A stretch of 64,000 nt of DNA from Myxococcota bacterium (GTDB lineage Bacteria; Myxococcota_A; SURF-8), in NCBI GenBank assembly GCA_963674735.2, contig CAXXQS010000001.1, forward strand, positions 960,001 through 1,024,000. The letters run 5' to 3'. The notes below the pieces were generated by a model. That model saw only the letters and a list, made by a program, of their open reading frames with translations, had not been told where the DNA came from and did not search any database. Positions 10,666-31,926 of this stretch are shown here, in pieces. The position numbers and the translations under genes were made by a program. Every line of letters starts with the position of its first letter. Position 1 is the first letter of the stretch.

Positions 10666-10734
10666 CGTGGTCGTGTTTCGTGCTCCAGCTATTTCAAGGG
10701 GACGTGTTGGCTCAGTACGAACGGTGTTTCTGTC

Positions 10735-16200: not shown

Positions 16201-16477
16201 AATCCACTCCTCGATTTATCGGTCACGGTTTCCTGGAATGCTTGTGTCAAGTATCCAGATTTCAATCGAAGTGCGATCATACGGTATTCTGTCCCAGTCG
16301 CCAAATATAAAACTAATACTGAATCAGACTATTCTCCAGAACCCTGAAAAGGAAAATCGGTAGATGTATTGAAAGTCGTTGAAATGATCGGAGAAAATGT
16401 GCTAGAAAAACAGCGCATTGGATGGATTCAGAAGTAAAACAGGACGCCGCGCAGCGGACCTGTCACAGGAGGTGCTC

Positions 16478-18250: not shown

Positions 18251-18274
18251 CGTTCTCGTCCAAATTGGTTCGTT

Positions 18275-18303
18275 ACAACGCCGCCCCAAAAGGGCGGCGT
18301 TGT
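18275..18303 (+). terminator. Hairpin terminator
   Basis: Perfect 12-bp stem acaacgccgccc-caaaa-gggcggcgttgt about 25 nt after the stop. Confidence 0.7.
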
Positions 18304-18512
18304 TGCGTTCTGCGTTTCGGGGGAGTTCTTTGTGACCTTGCATCCTTGCACGCCATCCGGTATAAAGGCGTCATCATCCAAGAGAGAGACATCAGCGTTA
18401 TGGCGTGACGCTTTATCGCCATTTTAGAGATATTTTCCGACGTTTTGTCCAGCGGATCGGACCTAAAAGGCGGAATCGGCCTTTTCGCACGAGCGAAGAA
18501 GGGAACCAATCA

Positions 18513-19745
18513 ATGAGCAAAATCGATAAAATCGAGTTATTTCATGTCTGTGTTCCACTTGACAAGCCGTTTTATCCGTCCTGGATTCCCGGCTACCCTC
18601 AGACGCAGGTGCACTATACTTTGGTGCGGCTGACCACCGATGACGGTCTCGTGGGACAGGCGGCCGGTAACGCGTTTACCAAAGAGCGTCAAGGTTTGGG
18701 GGATTTGTTAGGTGGTTTCCTGATGGGGATACAGGCCGACGACCTCGCCGTCGTCCGTGCGCGTTTACGTGAAGCCTCTTACCTGGGGTGGCGCAATGGA
18801 TGGCTTGAGAATGCCTTTTGGGATCTCAAAGGCAAGATTGCGGGCAAACCGGTCTACAAACTGCTTCAGGAGAAGGAAGAAACCGTCGAGAAAGCGACCG
18901 TTTATGCCTCAACCGGCAGCTTGAAAAGCATGGAAGAACGCAAACCCTATCTCGACGACATCCGGGCGAAGGGGGTGAGGGCGGTCAAGATCCGCGTGCA
19001 CGACCCCGAACAGAAGCAGGATATCTCTATCCTGGAGGCGGTGCGCAAGGAATTGGGGGATGATTTCGTGATTGCAGTGGATGCCAACCAGGGGTGGCCG
19101 GTCTCGCTGATCGAGCCGACCACCATCTGGGATTTGGAATATGCCACGAAGTTCGGCAAGGCTTGCGACGAATTGGGGATCGGCTGGATCGAAGAGCCGC
19201 TGGATATGCATGATTGGGACGGCATGGCTGAGTTGCGGAAGCGGGTCCAGACGCCCATTGCGGGCGCGGAGCTACTGGGTGACTGGCATGAGGTGCGGGC
19301 GTTGTTCGAGCGGGACTGTCTGGATATGTACCAACCCGACAGCACCTTCTGCGGCGGTTTGACCGTGGCCAAAAAGGTTATGGATGAATGTCGCAAGCGT
19401 GGATTGCAGTATTCGCCCCATACCTGGACAAACGGAATCGGTTTCATGATCAACTTGCATGCTTATGCTGCCTGGGAAAATCGTAAATATTTGGAATTTC
19501 CTTATGAACCGCCGGGTTGGGTGCCGGAAACGCGCGAAGGTATCATTCCTCCCGTTACGATCAATGGCGATGGAAGCGTCGATGTGTCTCAGGAACCCGG
19601 ATTGGGGCTCCATATCGACGATAAATTGTTGGCGCGTTACGGCAAGTGCTTCTTCAGATTGACTCCTTTCCGGCTGGCGTTGAAAACGATTCGCGAAAAA
19701 GGATTTAAAACCGCTATGGAGATCAAGAAAAAAAAACAAGGATAA
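18513..19745 (+). CDS. Mandelate racemase/muconate lactonizing (enolase superfamily) enzyme
   Basis: WDLKGK, KxR, and the metal ligands in DANQG, IEEP and GAE; PHTW. Start taken at MSKIDK. Confidence 0.88.
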   Translation: MSKIDKIELFHVCVPLDKPFYPSWIPGYPQTQVHYTLVRLTTDDGLVGQAAGNAFTKERQGLGDLLGGFLMGIQADDLAVVRARLREASYLGWRNGWLENAFWDLKGKIAGKPVYKLLQEKEETVEKATVYASTGSLKSMEERKPYLDDIRAKGVRAVKIRVHDPEQKQDISILEAVRKELGDDFVIAVDANQGWPVSLIEPTTIWDLEYATKFGKACDELGIGWIEEPLDMHDWDGMAELRKRVQTPIAGAELLGDWHEVRALFERDCLDMYQPDSTFCGGLTVAKKVMDECRKRGLQYSPHTWTNGIGFMINLHAYAAWENRKYLEFPYEPPGWVPETREGIIPPVTINGDGSVDVSQEPGLGLHIDDKLLARYGKCFFRLTPFRLALKTIREKGFKTAMEIKKKKQG

Positions 19746-19770: not shown

Positions 19771-19803
19771 AAAAACGCCCCTCCGACAATGGAAGGGCGT
19801 TTG
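19771..19803. terminator. Bidirectional intrinsic terminator between convergent genes
   Basis: aaaaacgccc...gggcgttt hairpin. Confidence 0.7.
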
Positions 19804-19827: not shown

Positions 19828-21918
19828 CTAGTTGGGTCGTGCATTGATTTTAGTGAGCCGTTGACTGTCGGGCGTGTAGCACAGTGTGCCGCAGCGCAGG
19901 CAACGGGCTGCTTCATGTTTGAGATCCTCTTCCGTGATGGTCTGGTCTACTTCTTCATAGGAGAGGATGCGTTCGGCTGGGTCGAGTTCGTCGAAGCTGA
20001 CGCGCGGAATCGGTTGAACGCCATTGAGTCCTGCTAAAATGGAAACGGTTAACGGCTTTTTCTGTACGTTTTCGGGGACGGACGGCTTTTCACCCATCAG
20101 GTACTGATGGATGGCACGAGCCGCCTTGCGTCCGCCTCCAATTGCCGAAACCGCCAGGTCGGGACCAGTGAAACCATCGCCTGCTACGAAAATGCTGGGC
20201 AGGCCGGTCTGCAGGGTGTCCTCGTCGGCGGCCAGCGTTCCCCAGCGCGTGATTTCGAGTCCGCGTTCTTTGAGATCCTCTTCGACGAAGGAAGGATCGA
20301 CTTTTTGACCGATCGCCGCGATGACCGCATCGAGTTCGAGAACTTTCTCAGATCCTTCTTTGGGTACCGGACGACGACGTCCCGAGGCGTCGGGCTCACC
20401 GAGTTCCATTTCGATGACTTCAAGCCCTTTCAGACGGTTGTTTTCGTCCCCAATGCAGCGGGTGGGGGCGGTAAGAAACATGAACTGGATGCCCTCGTGC
20501 TTGGCCGCTTCGATTTCCACCGGGTTGGCGGGCATTTCTTTCAAGGTGCGGCGATAAATAAGGAAAACTTCCTTCGCGCCCTCGCGCAAGGCGGAGCGGG
20601 CGGCGTCGATGGCCGTGTTGCCTCCACCGATGATCGCAACTCGTTCACCCAGTTCGACTTTTTCACCTTGTTCGCGTTTAGCCAGGAAGTGGATACCGCC
20701 CCAGACACCCTCCATGTCTTCGCCTTCGACGCGCATGGTGGAGTTGATCCAGGCTCCGACGGCGACTAAAACGGCGTCATAGTCGGCTTCCAACTTGCCC
20801 AGGGTGATGTCTTTGCCCAAAGCGACTCCGGTTTTGGCTTCGACACCCATATCGAGAATGCCCTGGATATCCCAATCGAGGATGCGTTTGGGCAGGCGAT
20901 ATTCGGGAATACCGTAACGTAACATGCCACCCAGGTGGTCTTGAGCTTCGAAAAGCGTGGGGTGGTGGCCGACGCGGCGCAGGAAGTAGGCCGCCGATAA
21001 CCCAGCCGGGCCGCCGCCGACTACGGCGATGCGTTTGCCGGTATCGGGCAGACGCGGCAGTTCGATATGCTTGTTGTCTTCTCGCTCCCAATCGGCCACG
21101 AAACGTTTGATTGTGTTGTGGAATACCGGTTCGTCTTCGATGGAGGTTCGGCGGCAGCTGGATTCACAGGGAGCCGGGCAAACGCGTCCACACACGGAAG
21201 GGAGGGGGTTGCGGTCTTTGATAATGCCAAGGGCCCGCTCGTAATCGCCTTCTCCAGCCGCTTTGACATAGGATGGAATGTCGATCTGAGCCGGGCAGAG
21301 CTGGCGACAAGGGGCCAGGCATTCGTCCGTGGTGTTCAGATGGAAAAGCCCGGTAGAGAGCGTTTGCAGTTGAATGACTCCATGGGGGCAGACACGTACG
21401 CAGGCACCGCAGCCACGGCAGGCATCTGCATTGAAATGCGGCCGACCGTCGTCGCCCATGCGGATAGCGTCGAAGGCACAGGCTTCCACGCAGGAACCGT
21501 ACCCCAGACAGCCCAGAGTGCAATTGGAATCGCCATCGTACAGATCGGCCACAGCTTGGCAATCCAGCGCTCCATCGTAGCGGAAAAGTCGTCCGGCGCG
21601 CTCGTTGCTGTTGCAATAGCGGCGTGCGAGGCTGGGTTCTTTGATTTCCACCTTCACGCCCATCACCGCGCCGACTTTCACGGCGGTGTCCGCACCGCCT
21701 GCGACACAGCCGTCGACCGGGGCATCGCCGCGTACAATGGCTTCGGCCATGGCTGCGCAACCGGGATAGCCGCAACCGCCGCAGTTCGCACCGGGCAGGG
21801 CATCGGCTACCGCGTCTATGCGCGGGTCTTGTTCGACGTAAAAGACCTTAGAGGCGAAGGCCAGCCCGGTAGCTGCCAGCAGTCCCAGGCTCAGCATCAG
21901 TAACGAAGCTTCGATCAT
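19828..21918 (-). CDS. rnfB: RnfB fused to a GltD/NfnB-like FAD- and Fe-S-containing NAD(P)H oxidoreductase domain
   Basis: N-terminal anchor, LPGANCGGCGYPGC and ferredoxin motifs; then APCRQLCP, CGRVCPAPCE, GGGPAG, GGGNTA...YRR, AGD and RCLRC. Confidence 0.92.
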   Translation of the reverse strand: MIEASLLMLSLGLLAATGLAFASKVFYVEQDPRIDAVADALPGANCGGCGYPGCAAMAEAIVRGDAPVDGCVAGGADTAVKVGAVMGVKVEIKEPSLARRYCNSNERAGRLFRYDGALDCQAVADLYDGDSNCTLGCLGYGSCVEACAFDAIRMGDDGRPHFNADACRGCGACVRVCPHGVIQLQTLSTGLFHLNTTDECLAPCRQLCPAQIDIPSYVKAAGEGDYERALGIIKDRNPLPSVCGRVCPAPCESSCRRTSIEDEPVFHNTIKRFVADWEREDNKHIELPRLPDTGKRIAVVGGGPAGLSAAYFLRRVGHHPTLFEAQDHLGGMLRYGIPEYRLPKRILDWDIQGILDMGVEAKTGVALGKDITLGKLEADYDAVLVAVGAWINSTMRVEGEDMEGVWGGIHFLAKREQGEKVELGERVAIIGGGNTAIDAARSALREGAKEVFLIYRRTLKEMPANPVEIEAAKHEGIQFMFLTAPTRCIGDENNRLKGLEVIEMELGEPDASGRRRPVPKEGSEKVLELDAVIAAIGQKVDPSFVEEDLKERGLEITRWGTLAADEDTLQTGLPSIFVAGDGFTGPDLAVSAIGGGRKAARAIHQYLMGEKPSVPENVQKKPLTVSILAGLNGVQPIPRVSFDELDPAERILSYEEVDQTITEEDLKHEAARCLRCGTLCYTPDSQRLTKINARPN

Positions 21919-21978
21919 GATGTCCTCTCAGCCGTTTTCGTTATGCATGCCCAGGGAAATCGTCGGGCACGCGTATCT

Positions 21979-22551
21979 TCAGATCATTCCCTTGAAAGCG
22001 AAAAAGGTCAATGACATGAGTCCGGCCGTGACCAGACCCAAGGCTGTTCCCCGCAAGGGTCGTGGCACCGGAGCGAACTCGAATCGCTCGCGAATTCCCG
22101 CAAAGAGAATAAGAGCCAAACCGAAACCCGCAGCCGCAGCAAAGGAGTAAACCAGGCATTCCAAGAAGTTGTGCTCATTCTTGATGTTGATTAGAGCGGC
22201 ACCGAGTACCGCGCAGTTGGTAGTGATCAGCGGTAAAAAGATACCCAGGGCCTGGTAAAGGGTGGGCATCGATTTCCGCAGGAACATTTCCACAAACTGT
22301 ACCAATGCGGCGATGACCAGAATGAAGGCCAGCGTACGCAGATATTGCAGATCGAAGGGAATGAGCAGGAAATATTCAACCATCCAAGCGATGACCGCCG
22401 CCAAAACCAGAATGAACTGAACGGCCAAGGCCATGCCAATGGCGGTTTCCATCTTTTTGGAAACACCCATGAAGGGGCAGTTTCCCAAAAACTGCGCCAG
22501 AAGAATGTTGTTGACGAAAATCGCACTGATGACCAACAGGAAATAATCCAT
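21979..22551 (-). CDS. rnfA: Rnf complex subunit A
   Basis: [25 protein letters not shown] and C-terminal FKGM. Confidence 0.95.
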
Positions 22552-22569
22552 GATCGTCCTCCCTCAGCG

Positions 22570-23190
22570 TCAGCCGGCTTTGGCCACGCGGGGCCGTCCC
22601 AAAACATTCATGATCCCCAGCATCAGTCCCAGGCACACGAAAGCGCCGGGAGCCTGCTGCATGAAGGCGAAGGGCTCGAATTGCGGTCCGAAAAGAGAAT
22701 GCCCGAAAAACTCGCCCTTTCCGAATACTTCACGCAGTGAAGCCAGGGCGACCAGCGAAAGCGTGAAGCCGAGTCCGATGCCCAAGCCGTCTGCCGCCGA
22801 CAGCAAAACGCCGTTTTTACTGGCAAAAGCTTCCGCGCGCCCCAGAATGATGCAGTTGACGACAATCAGGGGGATGAAGATACCCAGACTTTCGGAAATC
22901 GAAAAGAAATAGGCTTTCATCAGGATTTCTACCGCCACCACGAAGCTTGCAATGATGACGATGTAAGCCGCGATACGCACTTCTTTGGGGATGATGTTGC
23001 GGACCGCTGAAATAATCATGTTGGAACAGGCCAACACGAAGATGACCGATACTCCCATGCCGATGGCATTCTCAACGGTGGTTGTGACCGCCAGGGTCGG
23101 GCAGAGGCCCAGGACCAGTCGAAACGGCGGGATTTCTTTCCACAAACCTTTCGTGAATTCCTTTTTGAAGCTCACGTTATTCTCTCCCAC
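22570..23190 (-). CDS. rnfE: Rnf complex subunit E
   Basis: LGLCPTLAVTT, PLIVVNCIILGRAE and PGAF. Confidence 0.95.
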   Translation of the reverse strand: MGENNVSFKKEFTKGLWKEIPPFRLVLGLCPTLAVTTTVENAIGMGVSVIFVLACSNMIISAVRNIIPKEVRIAAYIVIIASFVVAVEILMKAYFFSISESLGIFIPLIVVNCIILGRAEAFASKNGVLLSAADGLGIGLGFTLSLVALASLREVFGKGEFFGHSLFGPQFEPFAFMQQAPGAFVCLGLMLGIMNVLGRPRVAKAG

Positions 23191-23209
23191 TTGCCGGGGT
23201 TTCGAATCT

Positions 23210-23782
23210 CTATGGAACCAGTTTGTCTTTGTGTTCTTTGAATATTGTCAGGCCGTCCTGCAAGGCCGAACAAACGGCCCGCGAGGTGACGGTTGCGCCG
23301 GTTACGGCATCTACTGTGCCCCCATCCGATTTGACCTTGAAAACGGCTTTTGCCAGATCCATGTTTTTAAACTGTTTGGTGAAGCTGTCTTCTTTGGCGC
23401 GGGTGCCGACGCCGGGGGTTTCGCTCATGGTCGTAATTCCGACACCGGCCAGTTTGTCGGCGGTCAGATCGAAGCCGATCATCACCCCCACATCACCGCC
23501 GAAACCTTTGCCCGATGTTTCAAGGGCGATGGCATAGGGCTTATCACCCTTTTTCGCCGTGAAAACGAGAACGTCACGGTCGCCGATTGTTACGCTACGC
23601 CGGTCCTTGAGTAGATCGTTTTCGGCTTCGCCGAGGATCGCGCGTACGGCGGGCATTTGTTTGTTTTCCAAAACCTGCAGCTCGATGCGCTCTTTGGTCA
23701 TGGCGTTGAGCCAGGAGAGCGACAGGCCGCTGATCAAGCAGACAATCGACAAGGACAGCACGATATGCACACTCTTAGGCAT
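23210..23782 (-). CDS. rnfG: Rnf complex subunit G (covalent FMN)
   Basis: N-terminal TM; ETPGVG; DAVTGATVTS flavinylation motif. Confidence 0.93.
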   Translation of the reverse strand: MPKSVHIVLSLSIVCLISGLSLSWLNAMTKERIELQVLENKQMPAVRAILGEAENDLLKDRRSVTIGDRDVLVFTAKKGDKPYAIALETSGKGFGGDVGVMIGFDLTADKLAGVGITTMSETPGVGTRAKEDSFTKQFKNMDLAKAVFKVKSDGGTVDAVTGATVTSRAVCSALQDGLTIFKEHKDKLVP

Positions 23783-24623
23783 GGACTTTCTCCATCGGCT
23801 GCGTTTTGGGTCGGATCAGATCGAGCAGCGGTGAGACCATGTTGCCAAGCAGGATCGCGAAGGGAACCACTTCCATCCAGATCCCGTAAACGCGAATCAG
23901 CATCAGCAACACACCCACCAACACGCCGTAAAGCACTTTGGCCACACAGTTGGCCGGGGAACTGGTTTCGTCGGTGATGAGGAAAAAGGCTGCCAGCCAA
24001 GCGCTGCCGTGGCTCAGTTCCCGCCACATATCCGGAACGGAGGCGGGATAAAGAGCGTGAAACAAAGCCGAGCTTGCAATGAGTCCCGCTAGAAAGGCTA
24101 ATGGTGTTAGGCGGTTGACGAAGCCTAGAACCCAGATCACAATGCCGCCCGCCATAATCGCCCACACGCAAGCCGTACCGAGCTGAACGCCGCCGACCGG
24201 GGCGATGTGGTGCGGCCAGGAAAGCAGGAGGATCAAATAGCCGATCAACGCCGGGTGGAAGGGGTAGCAGCCCAGTCCGCCGAAGATTTGCTTGGCCACC
24301 AAAGATGCCAGCGCCGCACCGATTACCACCACCCACCAGGGCACGGTTGGAGGAAGCAGCAGAGCGAGAATCAGGCCGGTCAGAATTCCGTGACCATCCA
24401 AAGCGTAGAGTGGCTGACGCATGAAATATTGTGCCAGCGCTTCCGACGCGACGGCCGTTGAAACGGCCAGCAGCAAGATGATCAATGCTTTCAAACCGTG
24501 CAGATAGACGGCTGCCGCGGCTCCGGGAAGGAGTGCTACCGCCATCGCGTAATGGTTGCGAACCGTATTGGCGCCGCTTTTCAGGTGCGGCGCCGGTCCA
24601 ACCGTCAGAATCCGATCCGCCAT
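23775..24623 (-). CDS. rnfD: Rnf complex subunit D, short form lacking the periplasmic FMN loop
   Basis: APH, KQIFGGLG..FHPAL, AFFLITD..SSP and FAILLGN. AGGAG RBS before ATG 24623. Confidence 0.88.
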   Translation of the reverse strand: MADRILTVGPAPHLKSGANTVRNHYAMAVALLPGAAAAVYLHGLKALIILLLAVSTAVASEALAQYFMRQPLYALDGHGILTGLILALLLPPTVPWWVVVIGAALASLVAKQIFGGLGCYPFHPALIGYLILLLSWPHHIAPVGGVQLGTACVWAIMAGGIVIWVLGFVNRLTPLAFLAGLIASSALFHALYPASVPDMWRELSHGSAWLAAFFLITDETSSPANCVAKVLYGVLVGVLLMLIRVYGIWMEVVPFAILLGNMVSPLLDLIRPKTQPMEKVHA

Positions 24624-24633
24624 GAATCTCTCC

Positions 24634-25914
24634 TTATCGGGCCAGGTTCTGCTTGGCCAGGGTGAACCACTGGCGCAGAGGCCGTAAACTCGGACACACC
24701 ACGCTGCACAGGCCACAGTCGATGCAGGACTCCAGGTTCGGGGCTTCGGCGTAACGCAAGTATTCGCAATAGCGTCCCATCGCATTGGGTTGCAGATGGG
24801 CCGGACAAACCTTGATACAAGCCCCGCAGTTGACGCAGGGTCGGGTTTGATACTCGTCGGCCGCGGTTGCCGCGATGATCGTCAGTCCTTCGACGCCTGG
24901 GACAATCGGGGTGTCGAGCGAGAAAATCGCTTGCCCGGTGAGCGCGCCGCCGAAAAGGATGCGGTCGAAGGTATTTACCGTGACACGGTTCCGTTGCAGG
25001 ATGTCGCGGACCGTCATCCCGACCGGTGCCCGTAAATTCTTCGTCGCGCCACCTGCGTCTACCAAGGTTAGGTGCAGATGGGTCGGGAGAATACCACGCA
25101 ACAGTACATCGGTGGCGGCCAACGCGAAGCTGACCGGGACGGCGCGCACGCTACCCGACGGTACCCCTTTCGCCACGAGCCCGGACGCAATGACGCGGTC
25201 GAAGCTTTGCGGGTATTGCGGAGAGATTGGCAGAATCTCCAACCCGTCGTGGAAGGACTCGCTGAAAAACCCGGATCCGGATTCAGGAACCGCCAGCACA
25301 ACCCGTGTCGTGTTGAACAGGCGTTTCATCAAAATGGCTGCGTCGGCCAAGGCATCCACACGATCACGTGCCAATTGTTGCCGGGCCTTCAAATGCAGAT
25401 CTTGGTCCGCCGCATTGATTACCAGCACCTGGACGTCGTCTTCCGTCTTCGGCTGGAGCCGTTCGAGCGGCATACCTAACACGAAAGAGGGGAAACCCCA
25501 GTTTTTAAGTTGCTGCCATAGTTGATCCGAAGTGGCTTTGAAGGCGTCGGGAACGGGAGAAACGCCAGGAACATTCGGTTGGAGGTTGGGTTTGACGCGT
25601 ACGGCCGGGGCCGCTCGAAAGTGAACGGGGAAGGGGGCGGTCGTCACTTCCTCGACTTTGCCTGCAAAAGGAGCGAGCCGTTGCGCGTTTTCATTTTCAG
25701 ACAATAGCGTGCCGGGTTCGAGGATATCCCCGTTTTTCAAGGGGGTTGTGCACGGAACATCCTCGTCCGTGACAAGGGGCCAGACCACCTCACTTGCTTC
25801 TAACCCGGTAAAAGGCTGAAGCTCGGAGACAATCAAAAAACGCGCCGCCTTCAATCCGTTAGACCATCCCATGAATGCATTCCTTCGGTCTAGGTTGCCG
25901 GTTTTTGATCTCAT
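24634..25914 (-). CDS. rnfC: Rnf complex subunit C, divergent (alternative start at 25872)
   Basis: APFAGKV, YPQ, SLBB segment APVGM...GGALTG, and two 4Fe-4S motifs (CVNCGACIKVCP, CIDCGLCSVVCP); first gene of the CDGEAB order. Confidence 0.85.
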   Translation of the reverse strand: MRSKTGNLDRRNAFMGWSNGLKAARFLIVSELQPFTGLEASEVVWPLVTDEDVPCTTPLKNGDILEPGTLLSENENAQRLAPFAGKVEEVTTAPFPVHFRAAPAVRVKPNLQPNVPGVSPVPDAFKATSDQLWQQLKNWGFPSFVLGMPLERLQPKTEDDVQVLVINAADQDLHLKARQQLARDRVDALADAAILMKRLFNTTRVVLAVPESGSGFFSESFHDGLEILPISPQYPQSFDRVIASGLVAKGVPSGSVRAVPVSFALAATDVLLRGILPTHLHLTLVDAGGATKNLRAPVGMTVRDILQRNRVTVNTFDRILFGGALTGQAIFSLDTPIVPGVEGLTIIAATAADEYQTRPCVNCGACIKVCPAHLQPNAMGRYCEYLRYAEAPNLESCIDCGLCSVVCPSLRPLRQWFTLAKQNLAR

Positions 25915-26346
25915 CGATCCCCCGATTCAAGCGGGGAATCTCTTCCTTGCAGTCGCAGGGAAGTCATCTTTACAAACGTTTCGTGGCACGAAAGCAAAAT
26001 CGGTTTCGACGCGCCGGAGCGTGGATTCACCTTGGAAAGGCGCTCGACCGGCGGTCGGTACTCAGCATCCAGATCCTTTTAGGACATACGCCAGAACCCG
26101 GCTTCAGTCAACAAAAACCCGCGGAAATTATAGATATTATGTCTGTTATAAAAAATTTTAATTAAAAGATGTACGGACTTTTTCTTGAGCTTCCACCATA
26201 AAAGTGACATCATGCGGCTGTCACGTTGTATTTCACTTCCGGTTTCAGCCGGAAGCCGAGCTTACTTGGTTTGCGATTACATTCAAATTCGCGCTTGCGT
26301 CGTTACTCTATTTATTGCGCGTAACAACCATCACGAGGTCAGGCAC

Positions 26347-28104
26347 GTGAAACCGTTGAAGACCACTTACTTGGGGTTGCTAGTCGGGGCGTGGCTTGTT
26401 GTTGTGGTTCTGGCTGGTGTTGTTCTCAGCATCGAGCCGGGACGGGATACGATGGCAAACCGGTTCGGAGAAGTTGCCTGGGATCACGAACTGCATGCCC
26501 GTGATGCGGTGAAGAACTGTCAGAGCTGCCACCACACCTCCCATCCGGGTGAATCCGATCCGCAGGCATGCCGTAATTGTCACAAAAATCCCAGCCTGTC
26601 AGATTCCGTTTACGCTTTGGCTATGACGGCGAAAAAAGGTCCGGCGGGAAAAGTCGAGAAAGAAGTTCCATCCCGCCGCAAAGCCTTCCACAAAAGTTGC
26701 ATCGGCTGTCATACCGCCGTAGCGAAAGGTCCGGTTGCTTGCCGCGAATGCCACATGCAGGTTTTCCCCACTGAGCAGGGCTCGACGGGTTTCGATCACA
26801 TCGGGTATGCCATCGAGAACGAACAGCGCTGCGAGTCCTGCCACGAGAAAGGGAAACCAGCCAACCTTAAAGGTGCAGAATGGGATAATTGCGCCTCTTG
26901 CCACGCCGAGGGACACATTCACGCTGAATGGGACAAGGAAACGCCGTTTAACCACTACCCGTTGTTCGCCGGAACGGGGGGCGAGGTGGTTTGGGACCAT
27001 CGGGGACATATTCTCGAACACATGGATTTCGAGGGACGTTCGCAGGATTGTCAGAGTTGCCATCACATGGATGCCGAGTTGTCGCCCCAGGCCTATCGCC
27101 GTTGCGATCAGTGCCACAAAGCCGCCGACAGCGAGCCGATGGCCAACGGTAAGGTGATACCCTCACGTAAGCGTGCTTTGCACGGAGTGTGTCTCGATTG
27201 CCATGATGCGCGCGACCGTGCACTTCCGGAAGAGATGCCGAAAAGCTGCAACGACTGCCACCGCAAAGCTCTTCATTACGAGGAAAGCCGCTTCGGACTG
27301 ATCACCTGGTCTCACGATGCCCATGGCAACAATGCCGGAGTCGGATGCACCTACTGCCATCACACGGATCCGGAAGAGGGGCCCATGCAGGCTTGTTCCG
27401 AATGCCATTTCGAGGGTCAGGTTGGTAATTTCAAAACGTTGAAGAATTTGACTCACACGAACTGCGTCAACTGTCATTCGCTGGAACGGGCTGATGTACA
27501 GGACATGCTGAAGTGGAAAAACATTCGTACCTGCGATGCCTGTCACGTTGCCGGACCGAAGGCGAATCTCAATACGGCGCGGGCCACTTACCTGGCGAAA
27601 CATGGGAACCTGACGCTGCAGAGCGTCACGCATTCGCTTTGTTGGAAATGCCACAAGCAAAGCGGGGCGGGACCAGGTGCCGATAATTGCCGTGGCTGCC
27701 ATGCATATCCGCGTGCTCGCCAAACAGCCTATGATGCTATGAAGCAAGCCGAGACAGAGCCGGAAGAATTGACGTTGCCTGAGGTTGAGTCCATTTCGCC
27801 GATGGCTTATCAAACCCATCGGATGCATGTCGATGTGGCGGGGATTCCCTGCTTCGATTGCCATCACAACATGCGTCCCAGCGAAAACGCCAAGCGAATA
27901 CTGAAAGACTTCAACGGCCCGACGGAAGGCTGCAAAATCGGAGGCGTGCTCGACGATTGTCGACCGCAGGCCGAAGATCCGCAACATTGCGCCAACTGTC
28001 ATGGCCAGGCGGCTTATCCGATTTCCGGAGAAAGACAAGCCCTGAGCGGCCTGTGCAACGGCTGTCACCAGGAATTCGGTCTCGAATTGCCGATGGGCGA
28101 TTGA
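26347..28104 (+). CDS. Periplasmic/membrane-anchored class III (c3-type) multiheme cytochrome with 19 CxxCH motifs
   Basis: GTG start after GAGG; N-terminal hydrophobic segment; 19 CxxCH counted; c3 signatures (W/F)DHxxH...CxxCHH. Confidence 0.92.
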   Translation: MKPLKTTYLGLLVGAWLVVVVLAGVVLSIEPGRDTMANRFGEVAWDHELHARDAVKNCQSCHHTSHPGESDPQACRNCHKNPSLSDSVYALAMTAKKGPAGKVEKEVPSRRKAFHKSCIGCHTAVAKGPVACRECHMQVFPTEQGSTGFDHIGYAIENEQRCESCHEKGKPANLKGAEWDNCASCHAEGHIHAEWDKETPFNHYPLFAGTGGEVVWDHRGHILEHMDFEGRSQDCQSCHHMDAELSPQAYRRCDQCHKAADSEPMANGKVIPSRKRALHGVCLDCHDARDRALPEEMPKSCNDCHRKALHYEESRFGLITWSHDAHGNNAGVGCTYCHHTDPEEGPMQACSECHFEGQVGNFKTLKNLTHTNCVNCHSLERADVQDMLKWKNIRTCDACHVAGPKANLNTARATYLAKHGNLTLQSVTHSLCWKCHKQSGAGPGADNCRGCHAYPRARQTAYDAMKQAETEPEELTLPEVESISPMAYQTHRMHVDVAGIPCFDCHHNMRPSENAKRILKDFNGPTEGCKIGGVLDDCRPQAEDPQHCANCHGQAAYPISGERQALSGLCNGCHQEFGLELPMGD

Positions 28105-28215
28105 CCGACTCGAAGATTGATGTCCGGCTTCTAGCCGTGTTTCGGAGATGATTGAAATAATCCTCGCCTGATGGCGGGGATATTTTGTGTATGCATCCCA
28201 GGTTTAGCAAGCAAG

Positions 28216-29574
28216 TCAGTTAGTCGAGAATGGACCGGATCTGTGTTTACGGGGCTCGATCAGGATCAGAGTCATATCCATGACGTTGGTCAAGGTCGGA
28301 CCGGTGATCGAAAGCGAATCGATTGCTTTGAAGAAGTGATACGAGTCGTTATCTTGCAGATACGAGATTGCGGACAAGCCTACTGTGTTTCCGTGTTGCA
28401 CTGTTTTACCGCATGCAAATGCACCTGCGGCATCGGTTGGTCCATCGGAACCATCTGTTCCGGCGCACAAAACATAGATACCCTCCGTGCCGCTGAGTTC
28501 TATCGCCATGGCCAAGGCCAATTCCTGGTTGCGACCACCCTTGCCCTTGCCGTTGATATGGACGGTTGTTTCTCCTCCGGCGACAAGCAGCAAGGGTTTC
28601 AAAAGGGAATCAAGACGTTTCGCCTTTGCCTGATCAGCCAGAATTTTTGCGACATCTCGGGCTTCTCCCTCGATAGCGGAACTCAATATTTCAACATCGA
28701 AATCCAGTTCAGCCGCCGCTAAACACGTGGCCTCTATCGCTAGTTTATTGGTTGCGATCAAGTGGTTGCTGACATGCGAAAGAGACTGCGCGCTTTTCGG
28801 CGTTTCGGATCGCCGTCCCAGGCTTCCTTCTGCAAGATGCTGCATGACGTCATCCGGGAGTTGCTTGGCTATGTCGTATGACTCAATGATTCTTAAACAG
28901 TCGGAAAACGTGGATGAATCCAAAACGGTCGGCCCCGATCCGATAACGGACAGATCATCTCCAATCACATCGGAAACAATCAAAGATATAACGGTCGAAG
29001 GAAGTGCGATTTCCGCCAAACGTCCACCTTTTACGGCGGAGGTGTGCTTGCGGATGGTATTGATTTCGTGGATGGTTGCGCCGCAGCCGAGAAGAGTTTC
29101 GGAAATCTTTTGTTTGTGAGAGAGATCGAGCGGGGCTACCGGAGCGATCATCAAGGCGCTGCTGCCGCCGGTGATACAACAGATCACCAAGTCTTTTTGC
29201 GTGCAATTTTCAAGACGGCGGATGATGGCATGGGTTGCTTCAACGCCATGCATATCCGGAACCGGATGAGAGGCTTCCCAGCAACGAACATACGAAAGCT
29301 CTTGCGCATGACCCGTTTTGACAACGATGTCGCCACCGGAAATGCGGTCTCCCAGCATGTTTTCCAGGGCAATCGCCATGGGTGCAGCGCCTTTGCCTCC
29401 ACCGACGATATGTATGCGTTCGAAAAGACCAAGATCGATGTGGCTGTCTCCTATGTGGAGATAATCGTCTTCCAGGTTTAAATTTCGATAGACGGCCTGA
29501 TCGGTTTTTACCGCCGCAACACCTTTATCGAAAAGCATTTGCAGGATGGAATCGTGTTTAATGGAATGGAGCAT
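28216..29574 (-). CDS. Glycerate kinase type 2 (MOFRL/DUF4147, GckA/TtuD-like)
   Basis: GGGKGA, ASHPVPD, TGGSSAL, SDVIGD, GGETTV, GGRNQE, GTDGSDG and TGPTLTNVMD. Confidence 0.92.
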   Translation of the reverse strand: MLHSIKHDSILQMLFDKGVAAVKTDQAVYRNLNLEDDYLHIGDSHIDLGLFERIHIVGGGKGAAPMAIALENMLGDRISGGDIVVKTGHAQELSYVRCWEASHPVPDMHGVEATHAIIRRLENCTQKDLVICCITGGSSALMIAPVAPLDLSHKQKISETLLGCGATIHEINTIRKHTSAVKGGRLAEIALPSTVISLIVSDVIGDDLSVIGSGPTVLDSSTFSDCLRIIESYDIAKQLPDDVMQHLAEGSLGRRSETPKSAQSLSHVSNHLIATNKLAIEATCLAAAELDFDVEILSSAIEGEARDVAKILADQAKAKRLDSLLKPLLLVAGGETTVHINGKGKGGRNQELALAMAIELSGTEGIYVLCAGTDGSDGPTDAAGAFACGKTVQHGNTVGLSAISYLQDNDSYHFFKAIDSLSITGPTLTNVMDMTLILIEPRKHRSGPFSTN

Positions 29575-29588
29575 ATTCGATGAGACTC

Positions 29589-30872
29589 TCAGACGTTTGG
29601 GTTCAGAGGAATGACATAGGGCCCTTCTGGAATAACGGCTATTCGTCGATCCTCGGATCTTTGCACCCAATCCAGAACTGAACGTTCGAGTTCCGAAACA
29701 TTCAATACGCCGGTAAGGGTGCGTTCTTCTTTATCAAGACCTTCGGTGTAAAGCGCGTAGGATCCTTTCAGCATTACCTCGGCCAGTAACTGCGTTTGCC
29801 ACTCGTCGATGTCGGCGGTCGGTTTGCGTTCAAGTTCTTTCAAGAAACCGGAGGGGCCCAGATTGACCAAACGCTTCTGTGCTTCTCTGAATTTTATCGA
29901 GCCAAATCCTTTTGCGCAGCGAGAGACAACGAACATTTTTCCCTCGGGCGCGAGTGCTCCGGCCGCCCCAACCATTCCTTTGATCGTCTGATAATACGTG
30001 TTATCCAAAGGATGCCCAGCCGAGGTTGTGATAACGGTTGTATAGGGATCATCGATCTGAATTTCACCGTATCTTTTGAAATAGTTCACGGCTTGCAAGT
30101 GGCTTTCGACCAGTTCTCCGAAATTCAGATAACAGATCTTTCTGTTTTCATCCAGGACGACATTTACCGCATAAGTCGGTCCGACTTGTTTGGCGATACG
30201 CAATTGCTCTTCGTGTAAGGGATTGCCGGATAATATGCAGTTCGAAGCTGCAGGCTGACTGAGAACGGAATAGGCATGTAGATGCGAGATCGTTTCAGTC
30301 GAAGCGACGCCCGGTGCAATCAGTTTGCGTCCACCCGAATATCCGGCCATAAAATGCGGTTCAACCAAACCGACAACGATCCTCACGTCTGCCTCGACAA
30401 ACCGCCTGTCCAAGTGAATGGGAGTGCCATTGGGTGTGCTGCCGAGTGATAGATGCCGGCTGCGTTCGGTCGCATCGTGACTGACGACGCGGGTTCGATC
30501 GAAGAGACGGTCGTCCCCAACCGTTTCACGCAAGGTGTCTTGCGAAAGAGGTTCGTGAAGACCCGTTGCGACAAGAATCGTCACGTTGCTTGTGTCGACA
30601 CCGGCCAATTCAAGTTGTTTGACTATTTCAGGAAGAATCAACCCGTTGGGAACGGGGCGGGTATCGTCGCAAATAAGGATACAGACCGATTTATTTCCAC
30701 GGACCGCCTGCACCAACGGCTCCGCTTGCATCGGGGATTCGAGAGACGCAACAAGATGTTTCCGTGGATCATCAAGTGGCTTCATCGGATGCTTGCGAAT
30801 GATCGTTACGTCCAGATCATCGGGAAGCACAAGATTGTATCCGGTCTCACCGTAATAAAGCTTGTAAATCAT
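29589..30872 (-). CDS. larA: Nickel-pincer-dependent lactate racemase family protein (LarA homolog)
   Basis: DDTRP, ATGLH, PHFMAGYSGGRK, GHPLDNTYYQTIKG and IPEGPY. Confidence 0.88.
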   Translation of the reverse strand: MIYKLYYGETGYNLVLPDDLDVTIIRKHPMKPLDDPRKHLVASLESPMQAEPLVQAVRGNKSVCILICDDTRPVPNGLILPEIVKQLELAGVDTSNVTILVATGLHEPLSQDTLRETVGDDRLFDRTRVVSHDATERSRHLSLGSTPNGTPIHLDRRFVEADVRIVVGLVEPHFMAGYSGGRKLIAPGVASTETISHLHAYSVLSQPAASNCILSGNPLHEEQLRIAKQVGPTYAVNVVLDENRKICYLNFGELVESHLQAVNYFKRYGEIQIDDPYTTVITTSAGHPLDNTYYQTIKGMVGAAGALAPEGKMFVVSRCAKGFGSIKFREAQKRLVNLGPSGFLKELERKPTADIDEWQTQLLAEVMLKGSYALYTEGLDKEERTLTGVLNVSELERSVLDWVQRSEDRRIAVIPEGPYVIPLNPNV

Positions 30873-30873
30873 C

Positions 30874-31911: not shown

Positions 31912-31926
31912 CTTTCCAAACTCCTG

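What the first reader, a model, noticed from the sequence alone, without database searches (positions are those of the whole stretch)
19828..28104. Rewired Rnf complex: possible periplasmic-cytochrome-to-NADP(H) electron conduit
Seen in sequence: rnfCDGEAB order. RnfG keeps its flavinylation motif (TGAT). RnfA and RnfE keep the four Cys (NCPF, TNC, LCPT, VNC). RnfB carries an extra flavoenzyme domain. RnfC and RnfD have lost cofactor motifs. A 19-heme cytochrome is divergently transcribed. Established: canonical Rnf runs Fd-B-A/E-G-D-C-NAD+, the A/E Cys bind a membrane [2Fe-2S], and cytochrome-associated Rnfs occur in Desulfovibrio (DhcA) and Methanosarcina (MmcA). Inference: the D-C arm is vestigial or structural, and electrons pass cytochrome <-> RnfG <-> A/E <-> RnfB-GltD <-> NADP(H), coupling periplasmic redox to cytoplasmic NADPH.
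Basis: partly seen in the sequence, partly recalled or inferred. Interest (0 to 1): 0.85.

Follow-up and report, generated by a model that had tools for sequence, protein, structure and literature searches.

The report
Cytochrome-linked Rnf with NADPH input module
This sulfate-reducer gene cluster encodes a variant of the Rnf membrane ion pump that has lost its usual NADH-handling parts, gained an NADPH-type flavoenzyme fused to RnfB, and sits beside a 19-heme cytochrome; it belongs to a large clade that includes the Desulfovibrio Rnf usually assumed to be an ordinary ferredoxin:NAD+ enzyme.

Summary
The minus strand carries rnfC-D-G-E-A-B. RnfB is fused to a GltD/NfnB-type FAD/NADPH module. 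RnfG keeps TGAT and RnfA/RnfE keep their four Cys. RnfC lacks the FMN and NADH motifs, RnfD lacks the flavinylation loop, and a 19-CxxCH cytochrome is transcribed divergently.

I compared 98 rnf loci. The 73 with a degenerate RnfC form one clade on an RnfA+RnfE tree (SH-aLRT 100). Of these, 65 carry a multiheme cytochrome in the locus, against 0 of 25 canonical loci. The flavinylated Thr of RnfD survives in 1% of 74 variant sequences. All eight [4Fe-4S] Cys of RnfC survive in 71 of 71.

The degeneration is clade-wide, not tied to the fusion. It also occurs in 20 Desulfovibrionaceae operons with plain RnfB, the D. vulgaris type. Fifty-two loci carry the fusion. Only the window's subclade (8 of 74) has also deleted the RnfD loop, and 6 of those 8 have 16-19-heme cytochromes beside rnf.

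Best reading (0.55): an ion-translocating NAD(P)H:cytochrome c oxidoreductase running GltD-FAD, RnfB, RnfA/E [2Fe-2S], RnfG-FMN, cytochrome. No biochemistry exists, and RnfC's conserved clusters are unexplained. It is a new variant of a known kind.

The parts
24634..25872 (-). RnfC-like subunit, 412 aa from M15 (the ORF runs to 25914). The RnfC fold and two [4Fe-4S] motifs are kept (Cys346/349/352/356 and Cys383/386/389/393; DNA 24694-24837). The FMN and NADH motifs are lost.
23775..24623 (-). RnfD, 282 aa from M55 (the ORF runs to 24785). The periplasmic loop with the flavinylation Thr is reduced to 18 residues (about 24162-24215). The positions of the riboflavin ligands read Y120/H123; D218 is kept.
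23210..23782 (-). RnfG with an N-terminal anchor and an FMN_bind domain. The flavinylation motif TGAT is at residues 161-164 (DNA 23291-23302). It is Desulfovibrio-type (NF045876).
22570..23190 (-). RnfE, with Cys30 and Cys113 ([2Fe-2S] ligands).
21979..22551 (-). RnfA, with Cys25 and Cys113 and the T-N pair that aligns with the Na+-site residues T111/N112 of A. woodii.
   Evidence: PMC11889175 passages
21334..21918 (-). RnfB part of the fusion, residues 1-195: a TM helix, the PF04060 Fe-S domain (Cys46/49/54/71) and a dicluster ferredoxin domain (Cys133-177).
19828..21333 (-). GltD/NfnB-type module of the fusion, residues 196-696: the PF14691 two-[4Fe-4S] domain, an FAD site (GGGPAG), an NADPH-type site (GGGNTAIDAAR...YRRT..EMPA) and a C-terminal CxxCxxxC tail.
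26347..28104 (+). Membrane-anchored cytochrome c with 19 CxxCH, transcribed divergently from rnfC (the ORF as listed starts at 26185). It is built of class III (c3/c7) repeats.
25873..26346 (.). Divergent intergenic region between rnfC and the cytochrome gene. No Rex-like operator was found there.
19779..19797 (-). Terminator-like hairpin just after the fusion gene. A second one lies after the cytochrome gene (28160-28181, plus strand). The total count of such sites in the region is at chance level, so only their placement is suggestive.

Best explanation
The locus encodes a cytochrome-linked Rnf that no longer uses RnfC to reach NAD+. It most likely works as an ion-translocating NAD(P)H:cytochrome c oxidoreductase.

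Proposed route: NADPH reduces the FAD of the GltD/NfnB-type module fused to RnfB. Electrons then pass through that module's two [4Fe-4S] clusters, the RnfB ferredoxin domain and its mobile Fe-S domain. They cross the membrane via the [2Fe-2S] cluster of RnfA/RnfE, where the ion is moved, and reach the covalent FMN of periplasmic RnfG. From there they leave to the membrane-anchored 19-heme cytochrome and on to the periplasmic and membrane redox network of a dsrAB-bearing sulfate reducer. The machine may also run in reverse.

RnfD and RnfC stay as a scaffold. RnfC keeps two Fe-S clusters whose role is unknown.

Shown: gene content, motif losses and retentions, the clade structure and the cytochrome linkage. 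Inferred: the cofactors, the route, the NADPH preference, the direction and the ion coupling.
For: 1. The wire is intact.
- RnfA Cys25/113 are kept in 72 of 72 variant sequences and RnfE Cys30/113 in 73 of 73.
- The T/N pair next to RnfA Cys113 is kept in 72 of 72.
- The RnfG motif [STAG]GA[TS] is kept in 74 of 74.
- The Fe-S Cys of the RnfB part and the FAD and NADPH glycine motifs are invariant in 14 fusion homologues.

2. The canonical exit is broken.
- Residues invariant in 26 canonical RnfC survive in 0-9% of 34 variants. In E. coli numbering these are G146, G148, A150, F152, P153, K157, E174, C175, D182, E214, N216, K217, N275 and M342.
- Pfam Complex1_51K scores 168-183 bits in 5 of 5 canonical RnfC. 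It scores 27.2 bits or less (cut-off 31.2) in 10 of 10 variants, and the SLBB domain is missing in all 10.
- The RnfD flavinylation Thr is kept in 1% of 74 variants, against 92% of 26 canonical sequences. The window has deleted the loop entirely.

3. Linkage to a cytochrome.
- A cytochrome with 4 or more hemes lies in 65 of 73 variant loci and in 0 of 25 canonical loci.
- It sits directly upstream of rnfC on the same strand in 57 of 73.
- Homologues of the 19-heme protein lie beside rnf in G036, G018 and G042.

4. The variant is one clade on the RnfA+RnfE tree: 72 rows against 25, SH-aLRT 100.

5. The closest solved relatives of the extra module are the NADPH-binding subunits of NfnABC and StnABC, then NfnB and GltD (447.8 to 233 bits). 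The three best-aligned chains (9bov_A, 9n5u_A, 8oh5_C) share its YRR(T/S)..EMPA stretch.

6. The conservation gradient fits the route: A/E 88%, B 82%, GltD 78%, G 70%, D 65%, C 42% against L089.

7. This is the genome's only Rnf/Nqr, so it is not a decaying spare copy.

8. In A. woodii, Na+ is pumped at RnfA/E during [2Fe2S] reduction and transfer to the RnfG FMN (PMC11889175, passages).

9. The literature already floats a cytochrome-pool link for Desulfovibrio Rnf (PMC4287179 and PMC10920352, passages). Fd:NAD+-coupled ion-gradient assays with D. alaskensis membrane vesicles are reported as unsuccessful (PMC4841214, passage).
Against: - There is no biochemical or expression evidence for this locus.
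- dhcA mutants of D. alaskensis G20 had no fitness defect where rnf mutants did. [quoted passage not shown]
- The cytochrome is not always adjacent. Three variant loci with 5 kb or more of upstream DNA have none. The 19-heme homologue lies 54 kb from rnf in G024 and about 1 Mb away in G012.
- The eight Fe-S Cys of RnfC are invariant in 71 of 71. A purely structural role does not explain that.
- RnfD D218, which aligns with the riboflavin/Na+ Asp, is kept in the window and in 58% of variants.
- NADPH versus NADH rests on family resemblance only.
- The heme potentials, and so the energetics of pumping, are unknown.
- The loss of the RnfC and RnfD sites and the gain of a cytochrome map to a single branch of the tree. 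The association therefore counts as one evolutionary event, not many independent ones.
Confidence: 0.55

Rival explanations
1. It is still an ordinary ferredoxin:NAD+ oxidoreductase. RnfC binds FMN and NADH through diverged residues. The GltD module only adds a second pyridine-nucleotide site, and the cytochrome is a co-located but separate gene.
For: - The full RnfC fold is predicted: pLDDT 92.1, TM 0.81-0.85 to solved RnfC.
- The Fe-S Cys are invariant.
- Genetics in D. alaskensis G20 was read as Fd:NADH pumping, and dhcA was dispensable (PMC4215793, passages).
Against: - Fourteen residues invariant in canonical RnfC are kept in 0-9% of variants, and no replacement motif is conserved. In 45 variant RnfC the only invariant non-Cys positions are five Gly and one Pro.
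- The N-domains diverge much faster than in canonical Rnf (ratio 0.41 against 0.92).
- Complex1_51K is below the cut-off in 10 of 10 variants.
- The RnfD Thr is lost, which breaks the G-to-D-to-C chain.
Confidence: 0.1
2. It is a convergent Nqr-like enzyme. NAD(P)H enters at the fused flavoprotein, as NADH does at NqrF. Electrons end on menaquinone bound at RnfD/RnfC, and the cytochrome is accessory.
For: - The architecture parallels Na+-NQR: a pyridine-nucleotide flavoprotein on the A/E side and an RnfC homologue without FMN.
- NqrA is the second-best fold match (TM 0.65-0.71).
- A published scenario derives NqrA from an RnfC that lost its NAD and FMN sites (PMC4014512, passage).
Against: - Nqr needs the covalent FMN of NqrB and riboflavin to reach quinone. 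Here the equivalent Thr is kept in 1% of variants, and the residues at the riboflavin positions are poorly kept: N122 27%, N119 47%.
- NqrA lost its Fe-S clusters, whereas this RnfC keeps them.
- The tight cytochrome linkage (57 of 73 directly upstream) would be unexplained.
Confidence: 0.08
3. It is a flavin-based bifurcating or confurcating Rnf. The NfnB-type FAD splits or merges electron pairs between two branches. One branch goes through RnfB, A/E and G to the cytochrome. The other goes through the retained RnfC [4Fe-4S] clusters to ferredoxin or another cytoplasmic partner.
For: - The best solved homologues of the module are subunits of the electron-bifurcating NfnABC, StnABC and NfnAB enzymes (entry titles).
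- RnfC's clusters are invariant although its flavin site is gone.
- The fusion has an extra invariant C-terminal CxxCxxxC.
- Solved Rnf structures put RnfC in firm contact with RnfB (PMC9588780 and PMC11889175, passages).
Against: - The same module in glutamate synthase transfers electrons without bifurcation (recalled knowledge).
- No second-branch partner is encoded in the locus.
- The 20 plain-RnfB operons keep the RnfC clusters without any GltD module.
Confidence: 0.12
4. The complex mainly runs in reverse. Electrons from the periplasmic cytochrome pool are pushed by the ion gradient into NADP+, or into ferredoxin in the plain-RnfB forms, to supply biosynthetic reductant.
For: - It is the same hardware as the best explanation.
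- Rnf is known to be reversible (PMC11889175 and PMC12174285, abstracts and passages).
- rnf is needed for growth of G20 on H2 and formate (PMC4215793, passages).
Against: - No NiFe hydrogenase was found in this 94% complete genome, so a periplasmic H2 source is not evident.
- Sequence cannot settle the direction.
Confidence: 0.15

Closest known systems
[quoted passage not shown]
   Same: - It falls in the same clade on the RnfA+RnfE tree.
- RnfG passes the DVU2794-specific NCBIfam model.
- A multiheme cytochrome lies next to rnfC.
- The RnfC FMN/NADH motifs are lost in 40 of 40 sampled Desulfovibrionaceae operons, and the RnfD flavinylation motif does not match in 38 of 40. The other two match at other positions.
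   Different: - Here RnfB carries a 500-residue GltD/NfnB module. Half of the sampled Desulfovibrionaceae operons (20 of 40) have it too, but the 20 operons with plain RnfB, the form reported for D. vulgaris (RnfB 30.9 kDa, PMC10920352), do not.
- The cytochrome has 19 hemes, its own anchor and a divergent promoter, instead of a 10-heme first gene of the operon.
- The RnfD loop is deleted outright.
- No apbE/rnfF lies in the operon; two ApbE genes lie elsewhere.
Methanosarcina acetivorans Rnf with MmcA
   Same: The Rnf operon includes a multiheme cytochrome that carries electrons out of the complex to a non-NAD acceptor (10.1101/2022.07.20.500911 and PMC12174285, passages).
   Different: [quoted passage not shown] Here the RnfC and RnfD sites are lost.
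- The donor there is ferredoxin. Here a pyridine-nucleotide flavoprotein is fused to RnfB.
- I did not examine the archaeal sequences myself.
Canonical Na+/H+-translocating ferredoxin:NAD+ oxidoreductase (A. woodii, C. tetanomorphum and A. vinelandii structures 9eri, 7zc6, 8ahx)
   Same: - Six homologous subunits in rnfCDGEAB order.
- The RnfA/E [2Fe-2S] Cys, the RnfG flavinylation site, the RnfB Fe-S domains, and the RnfC fold with its two [4Fe-4S] motifs.
   Different: There is no FMN/NADH site in RnfC, no flavinylation site in RnfD, an added GltD module and a linked cytochrome.
Na+-NQR
   Same: - A pyridine-nucleotide-oxidising flavoprotein feeds the A/E-type (NqrD/E) cluster side.
- The RnfC homologue has no flavin.
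   Different: - The input module is unrelated to NqrF.
- The FMN of the NqrB equivalent is lost rather than kept.
- RnfC keeps Fe-S clusters that NqrA lacks.
- There is no sign of a quinone site.
NADPH-binding subunits of NfnABC/StnABC, NfnB and the glutamate synthase small subunit (9bov_A, 9n5u_A, 8oh5_C, 5jca_L, 2vdc_G)
   Same: The two-[4Fe-4S] N-domain plus the FAD and NADPH Rossmann domains match at 233-448 bits. Only the two top hits are aligned as far as the C-terminal Cys motif.
   Different: Here the module is fused behind a membrane-anchored RnfB and encoded in an rnf operon. Sources label it 'FAD-dependent oxidoreductase' or 'formate dehydrogenase beta subunit'. A 2024 survey read it as loss of rnfB (PMC11434368, passage).

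Membership tests
Rnf complex (RnfABCDGE-type electron transport complex) | Six subunits C, D, G, E, A and B encoded together | tested here: met
   Contiguous minus-strand genes with Pfam/NCBIfam matches for each.
Rnf complex (RnfABCDGE-type electron transport complex) | Two Cys each in RnfA and RnfE that ligate the membrane [2Fe-2S] | tested here: met
   RnfA C25/C113 and RnfE C30/C113. They are conserved in 72 of 72 and 73 of 73 variant sequences. The ligand role comes from PMC11889175 passages.
Rnf complex (RnfABCDGE-type electron transport complex) | Covalent-FMN motif in RnfG | tested here: met
   TGAT at residues 161-164. The motif is present in 74 of 74 variants. Flavinylation itself is not testable here.
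Rnf complex (RnfABCDGE-type electron transport complex) | Covalent-FMN Thr in the periplasmic loop of RnfD | tested here: not met
   The loop is cut to 18 residues with no [ST]xA[TS]P motif. RnfD scores below the TIGR01946 cut-off.
Rnf complex (RnfABCDGE-type electron transport complex) | FMN- and NADH-binding NuoF-like module in RnfC | tested here: not met
   GGAxFP and ECEP are absent. Complex1_51K scores 20 bits against a cut-off of 31.2. TIGR01945 scores 144.9 against 245.95.
Rnf complex (RnfABCDGE-type electron transport complex) | Two [4Fe-4S] motifs in RnfC | tested here: met
   CxxCxxCxxxC appears twice and is invariant in 71 of 71 variants.
Rnf complex (RnfABCDGE-type electron transport complex) | Ferredoxin:NAD+ oxidoreductase activity with ion translocation | not testable with these tools
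   This needs enzyme assays.
Desulfovibrio-type (DVU2794-type) cytochrome-associated Rnf | RnfG passes the NF045876 exception model | tested here: met
   222.7 bits against a cut-off of 205.
Desulfovibrio-type (DVU2794-type) cytochrome-associated Rnf | Placement in the clade of cytochrome-linked operons | tested here: met
   On the RnfA+RnfE tree the variant rows (72) separate from the canonical rows (25) with SH-aLRT 100. This was a quick search without bootstraps.
Desulfovibrio-type (DVU2794-type) cytochrome-associated Rnf | Multiheme cytochrome c gene next to rnfC | tested here: met
   The 19-heme gene lies 474 bp from the rnfC start and is divergent. In the clade, 65 of 73 loci have one.
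GltD/NfnB family (NADPH-dependent FAD, two-[4Fe-4S] oxidoreductase module) | PF14691 cluster domain plus Pyr_redox_2 with FAD and NAD(P)H glycine motifs | tested here: met
   PF14691 83.3 bits, PF07992 120.2 bits and NF009410 532.4 bits against 516. The motifs are listed.
GltD/NfnB family (NADPH-dependent FAD, two-[4Fe-4S] oxidoreductase module) | Specificity for NADPH | tested here: inconclusive
   The YRR(T/S)..EMPA stretch is shared with the three best-aligned solved chains, which belong to NfnABC and StnABC entries. That this motif fixes specificity is recalled knowledge, not tested.
Class III (c3-type) multiheme cytochromes | Repeated CxxCH with bis-His capacity, and export | tested here: met
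   PF02085 103.9 bits, 19 CxxCH, 44 His and an N-terminal hydrophobic anchor. It scores below the cut-offs of HmcA (77 against 400) and TmcA (87 against 114), so it is a member of neither.

The most novel reading that the evidence does not exclude
The whole cytochrome-linked Rnf clade cannot reduce NAD+ at RnfC at all. That clade includes the D. vulgaris / D. alaskensis type used in every model of sulfate-reducer energetics. These complexes would be ion-translocating (NADPH or ferredoxin):cytochrome c oxidoreductases that connect cytoplasmic reductant to the periplasmic cytochrome network. The NADPH-fed RnfB-GltD form is the widespread and probably older state. The familiar plain-RnfB form is a single nested offshoot within Desulfovibrionaceae.
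Probability: 0.45. Interest if true: 0.8.

Novelty: new variant of a known kind. Interest (0 to 1): 0.7.

Why it matters
Rnf is treated as a ferredoxin:NAD+ pump in energy budgets of sulfate reducers, syntrophs and marine Desulfobacterales. Three things follow if this clade instead moves electrons between NADPH (or ferredoxin) and periplasmic cytochromes.
- Models of how sulfate reduction conserves energy change: where NAD(P)H enters the chain, and what DhcA-type cytochromes are for.
- It offers a natural example of the Rnf pump module (B-A/E-G) working without the D-C return arm. That is a direct test of the recent claim that ions are pumped at RnfA/E.
- It is a second, independent rewiring of Rnf towards a pyridine-nucleotide input, alongside the origin of Na+-NQR.

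The fusion protein is currently annotated only as a generic FAD-dependent oxidoreductase, so it is invisible to pathway reconstruction.

Tried and rejected
It gives no information, and I did not repeat it in any form.
- Expression: no RNA holder is listed for this stretch. Three DNA-type rows from one study hold it. I did not lay reads.
- A Rex-type operator, with the consensus recalled from memory, has 4 matches at up to 3 mismatches in the window against 3.0 expected. None lies in the rnfC-cytochrome intergenic region.
- The promoter and terminator scans are at chance level overall.
- QrcA was not found above the cut-off in the genome (20.6 bits against 180), and no NiFe hydrogenase was found. 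I therefore could not name the cytochrome's downstream or upstream partner.
- Taxonomy: cluster look-up of fusion homologues gave no organism names. Placement in Desulfobacterota/Thermodesulfobacteriota rests on the nearest named loci, Atlas taxa and dsrA.
- Whether plain RnfB arose by loss of GltD is unsettled. The RnfA+E tree nests the plain-RnfB operons inside fusion operons. The tree of the RnfB N-domain keeps the plain and fusion forms as separate sides of a branch. Loss with fast divergence and replacement both remain possible.
- My regex hits for an RnfD flavinylation motif in 3 variant loci (L021, L120, L128) lie at residues 389/411, 294/378 and 245/329, not in the loop. I treat them as chance.
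- Literature: Pereira et al. 2011 is not held. I know it only through citations in other papers.
- Searches, and the passages I read from their hits, turned up no statement that the RnfC or RnfD cofactor sites are lost in Desulfovibrio-type Rnf, and no description of an RnfB-GltD fusion. The one exception is PMC11434368, which reports 'loss of rnfB' with an FAD-dependent oxidoreductase gene at the operon end.
- The 2025 RNF/NQR review has no occurrence of Desulfovibrio, NADPH, sulfate or fused.
- The library is open-access only, and supplements were closed. They might hold alignments that bear on this.

Full report
**What is in the window**

Six contiguous minus-strand genes encode RnfC, RnfD, RnfG, RnfE, RnfA and an RnfB fusion. 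A cytochrome gene is transcribed the other way from the same intergenic region.

Likely true starts:
- RnfC starts at M15 (25872).
- RnfD starts at M55 (24623), behind an AAGGAG.
- The cytochrome starts at a GTG (26347), followed by a hydrophobic anchor.

RnfA, RnfE and RnfG pass the curated NCBIfam cut-offs. RnfG fits the Desulfovibrio-specific model NF045876 (222.7 bits, cut-off 205). RnfC (144.9 against 245.95) and RnfD (191.2 against 207.05) fall short.

The 696-residue RnfB protein has these parts in order:
- a TM helix;
- the RnfB Fe-S domain;
- a dicluster ferredoxin domain;
- a complete GltD/NfnB-type unit: a two-[4Fe-4S] domain, an FAD site, an NADPH-type site and a C-terminal CxxCxxxC.

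The cytochrome has 19 CxxCH and 44 His and is built of class III repeats. It passes neither the HmcA nor the TmcA model.

This is the only Rnf/Nqr locus found in the genome, which has 3 contigs and is 94% complete. The genome also encodes DsrA at 569 bits and two ApbE genes elsewhere. No NiFe hydrogenase was found.

**The motif claims**

I aligned the subunits to solved structures.
- Where A. woodii RnfC has GLGGATFPT and NGAECEPYL, this RnfC has unrelated residues. Both CxxCxxCxxxCP motifs are kept.
- The RnfD alignment jumps over A. woodii residues 148-186. That stretch contains the FMN-bearing T156 (PMC11889175, passages).
- RnfG has TGAT at residues 161-164. RnfA has C25/C113 and RnfE has C30/C113.

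**How general it is**

I assembled 98 rnf loci that hold both rnfC and rnfD, from four sources:
- 20 came from a genome-collection scan with an alignment of fusion homologues. This set is biased towards fusions.
- 18 came from 19 stretches fetched around NF045876-like RnfG genes in a 301-genome sample of the window's own GTDB phylum. One stretch ends before rnfC.
- 40 came from a 61-genome sample of the family of a Pseudodesulfovibrio locus, that is Desulfovibrionaceae. In that sample 41 genomes had a match.
- 20 were chosen as canonical RnfD loci from the phylum sample.

E. coli rsx served as an extra reference.

The loci fall into two classes with no intermediates:

| Feature | Canonical (25 loci) | Variant (73 loci) |
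|---|---|---|
| GGAxFP in RnfC | all | none |
| [ST]xA[TS]P[LIMV] in RnfD | all | 70 lack it; 3 regex hits lie outside the loop |
| Cytochrome with 4 or more hemes in the fetched stretch | 0 | 65 |
| RnfB | no fusion | 52 fusion, 20 plain, 1 cut by a contig end |

Position of the cytochrome in the 73 variant loci:
- directly upstream of rnfC on the same strand in 57;
- divergent within 1.5 kb in 2;
- on the opposite strand at 1.5-2.4 kb in 2;
- just downstream of the fusion gene in 3;
- 11.7 kb away in 1;
- not found in 8, of which 5 end less than 1.5 kb upstream of rnfC.

The nearest cytochrome has 4 to 19 hemes; ten hemes is commonest (30 loci).

Pfam gives an independent check. Complex1_51K scores 168-183 bits in 5 of 5 canonical RnfC. 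It scores at most 27.2 bits (cut-off 31.2) in 10 of 10 variant RnfC, five from each RnfB type.

**Residue-level picture**

RnfC:
- Fourteen positions are invariant in 26 canonical RnfC, around the FMN and NADH site. They are kept in 0-9% of 34 full-length-aligned variants.
- All eight cluster Cys are kept in 71 of 71 variants.
- In 45 variant RnfC, the only other invariant positions are five Gly and one Pro. Mean column identity is 31%.
- Relative to RnfA+E, the RnfC N-domains keep 0.92 of the identity in canonical pairs but 0.41 in variant pairs. The ferredoxin domain keeps 0.93 and 0.73.
- An AlphaFold model of the window's RnfC is confident (pLDDT 92.1). It superposes on solved RnfC (TM 0.81-0.85 at 20-21% identity) better than on NqrA (0.65-0.71).
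- So the fold and the clusters are kept, and the flavin/NADH chemistry is gone.

RnfD:
- The flavinylated Thr (E. coli T187) is kept in 1% of 74 variants, against 92% of 26 canonical sequences.
- The neighbouring Ala is kept in 11%, and R128 in 0%.
- The positions aligned with the riboflavin ligands are kept in 27-58%. The window has Y120, H123 and D218.
- The loop is 61-90 residues in canonical RnfD and mostly 50-69 in variants. It is only 18-21 in eight sequences: the window, L088-L091, L096, L097 and L099.

The pump side is untouched. The RnfA and RnfE Cys and the T-N pair beside RnfA Cys113 are kept in 72-73 of 72-73 variants. The RnfG motif is kept in 74 of 74.

**Phylogeny**

On a quick maximum-likelihood tree of concatenated RnfA+RnfE (97 rows), the 25 canonical rows and the 72 variant rows are separated by one branch with SH-aLRT 100.
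- The window groups with five relatives from its own order (99).
- The 20 plain-RnfB operons form one nested clade (99) inside Desulfovibrionaceae fusion operons.
- The other variant branches all carry the fusion.

In the sets not chosen by the fusion, 32 of 52 variant loci with a known RnfB have it.

A tree of the RnfB N-domain keeps plain and fusion forms on separate sides of a branch. Whether plain RnfB is a loss of GltD or a replacement therefore stays open.

The site losses and the cytochrome linkage map to a single branch. The association is one historical event maintained across a wide clade, not many independent replicates. By record titles, that clade includes Desulfobacterales, Desulfovibrionaceae, Desulfarculaceae, Geopsychrobacteraceae and a Fibrobacteraceae MAG.

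**The extra module**

Its best solved relatives are the NADPH-binding subunits of the bifurcating NfnABC and StnABC enzymes (447.8, 439.6 and 402.6 bits), followed by NfnB and glutamate synthase small subunits. The three best-aligned chains share the YRR(T/S)..EMPA stretch (entry titles). NADPH as the nucleotide is an inference from that family resemblance.

At least 119 of the 120 best database clusters (52-79% identical, full length) carry the same RnfB-plus-GltD domain set. Sources label them 'FAD-dependent oxidoreductase' or 'formate dehydrogenase beta subunit'.

**Local relatives**

Four genomes of the window's family and order carry both this variant and a canonical rnf elsewhere. The window's genome has only the variant.

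The 19-heme cytochrome has 44-45% identical homologues in all four relatives searched. The homologue lies beside rnf in G036 and G018 (and in G042). It lies 54 kb away in G024 and about 1 Mb away in G012.

**Mechanism**

The A. woodii study assigns Na+ binding and translocation to RnfA/E. It is driven by reduction of the [2Fe2S] cluster and its discharge to the RnfG FMN (PMC11889175, passages). Everything from the nucleotide site to RnfG is intact and highly conserved here. Everything after RnfG on the canonical path is broken. A periplasmic multiheme acceptor is encoded alongside.

The simplest working model is an NAD(P)H:cytochrome c oxidoreductase that keeps the Rnf pump. Direction, ion and partner cytochromes are not established.

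The invariant RnfC clusters are the main loose end. They argue against a purely vestigial D-C arm. They leave room for a second electron branch, possibly tied to the bifurcation-type flavin of the NfnB family.

**Literature**

From passages read:
- A link between the rnf-encoded cytochrome and the periplasmic cytochrome pool has been hypothesised for Desulfovibrio (PMC4287179). DvH Rnf has been called 'ferredoxin:cyt c3 or ferredoxin:NAD+ oxidoreductase' (PMC10920352).
- G20 genetics treated it as Fd:NADH and found dhcA dispensable (PMC4215793).
- Vesicle assays for Fd:NAD+-coupled gradients were unsuccessful (PMC4841214).
- A 2024 survey saw 'loss of rnfB' with an FAD-dependent oxidoreductase gene at the operon end in many Desulfovibrionaceae (PMC11434368). 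My analysis reads that gene as the RnfB-GltD fusion.
- For M. acetivorans, the cofactor sites of RnfB, C, D and G are said to be conserved (10.1101/2022.07.20.500911).
- In the open-access library and the passages I read, I found no statement of the clade-wide loss of the RnfC and RnfD sites. Pereira et al. 2011 was not available.

**Verdict**

- The degeneration is a clade trait, not a consequence of the fusion.
- RnfC is not simply vestigial.
- The cytochrome linkage is frequent, not absolute.

It is a new variant of a known kind, and it is directly testable.

Noticed in passing
L028-L032, L034, L036-L039, L041, L044 (for example L030:9968-12049 and L039:9950-12052): A second group of RnfB-GltD fusion genes has a TM helix and RnfB Fe-S domain but a lower GltD score (260-364 bits). 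They stand without any rnf genes within up to 10 kb, in Desulfobacula, Desulfotignum, Desulfosarcina and other MAGs. They may serve an rnfCDGEA encoded elsewhere or a different membrane partner.
   Followed up: partly
G036:C1:3462300-3475300 (L146), G024 (L147), G018 (L149), G042 (L150), G048 (L148): Relatives in the window's family and order carry a canonical rnfCDGEAB with all cofactor motifs, in addition to the variant (G048 matched only as canonical). The window's genome has only the variant, in the 94% that is assembled.
   Followed up: partly
L097:6940-8547 and 9416-11368; L099:14160-15713 and 16497-18440: In two more distant members of the loop-deleted subclade, a 16-heme cytochrome and a further ORF of about 650 aa with five CxxCH follow the fusion gene on the same strand. 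In the other loci the cytochrome precedes rnfC.
   Followed up: no
window 24634-25872 (RnfC residue 369): A ninth Cys lies between the two cluster motifs of RnfC. It is present in 17 of 71 variant sequences and in 0 of 26 canonical ones.
   Followed up: no
L065 (Salidesulfovibrio brasiliensis JCM 12178), 3132-5245: The fusion gene is split over two frames (458 aa plus 323 aa ORFs), and rnfA is also split. This suggests frameshifts or sequencing errors in that draft.
   Followed up: no
window 28216-32904 (minus strand) and 16418-19745 (plus strand): The flanking genes are unrelated to respiration by Pfam: a glycerate-kinase-like protein (DUF4147/MOFRL), a LarA-like lactate racemase, DUF2804, an alpha/beta hydrolase and an enolase-superfamily protein. 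One 610-aa ORF has no Pfam match.
   Followed up: no
own genome G000:C2:1792113-1792631 and C2:134217-134726: Two genuine NuoF/HydB-type FMN-binding modules (164-170 bits) exist elsewhere. NADH-linked flavoproteins are therefore present outside Rnf.
   Followed up: no
The DVU2794-type RnfG model passes its cut-off in 40 of 61 sampled Desulfovibrionaceae genomes but in only 8 of 301 genomes of the window's GTDB phylum. That family is evidently classified in a different GTDB phylum from the window's organism.
   Followed up: no
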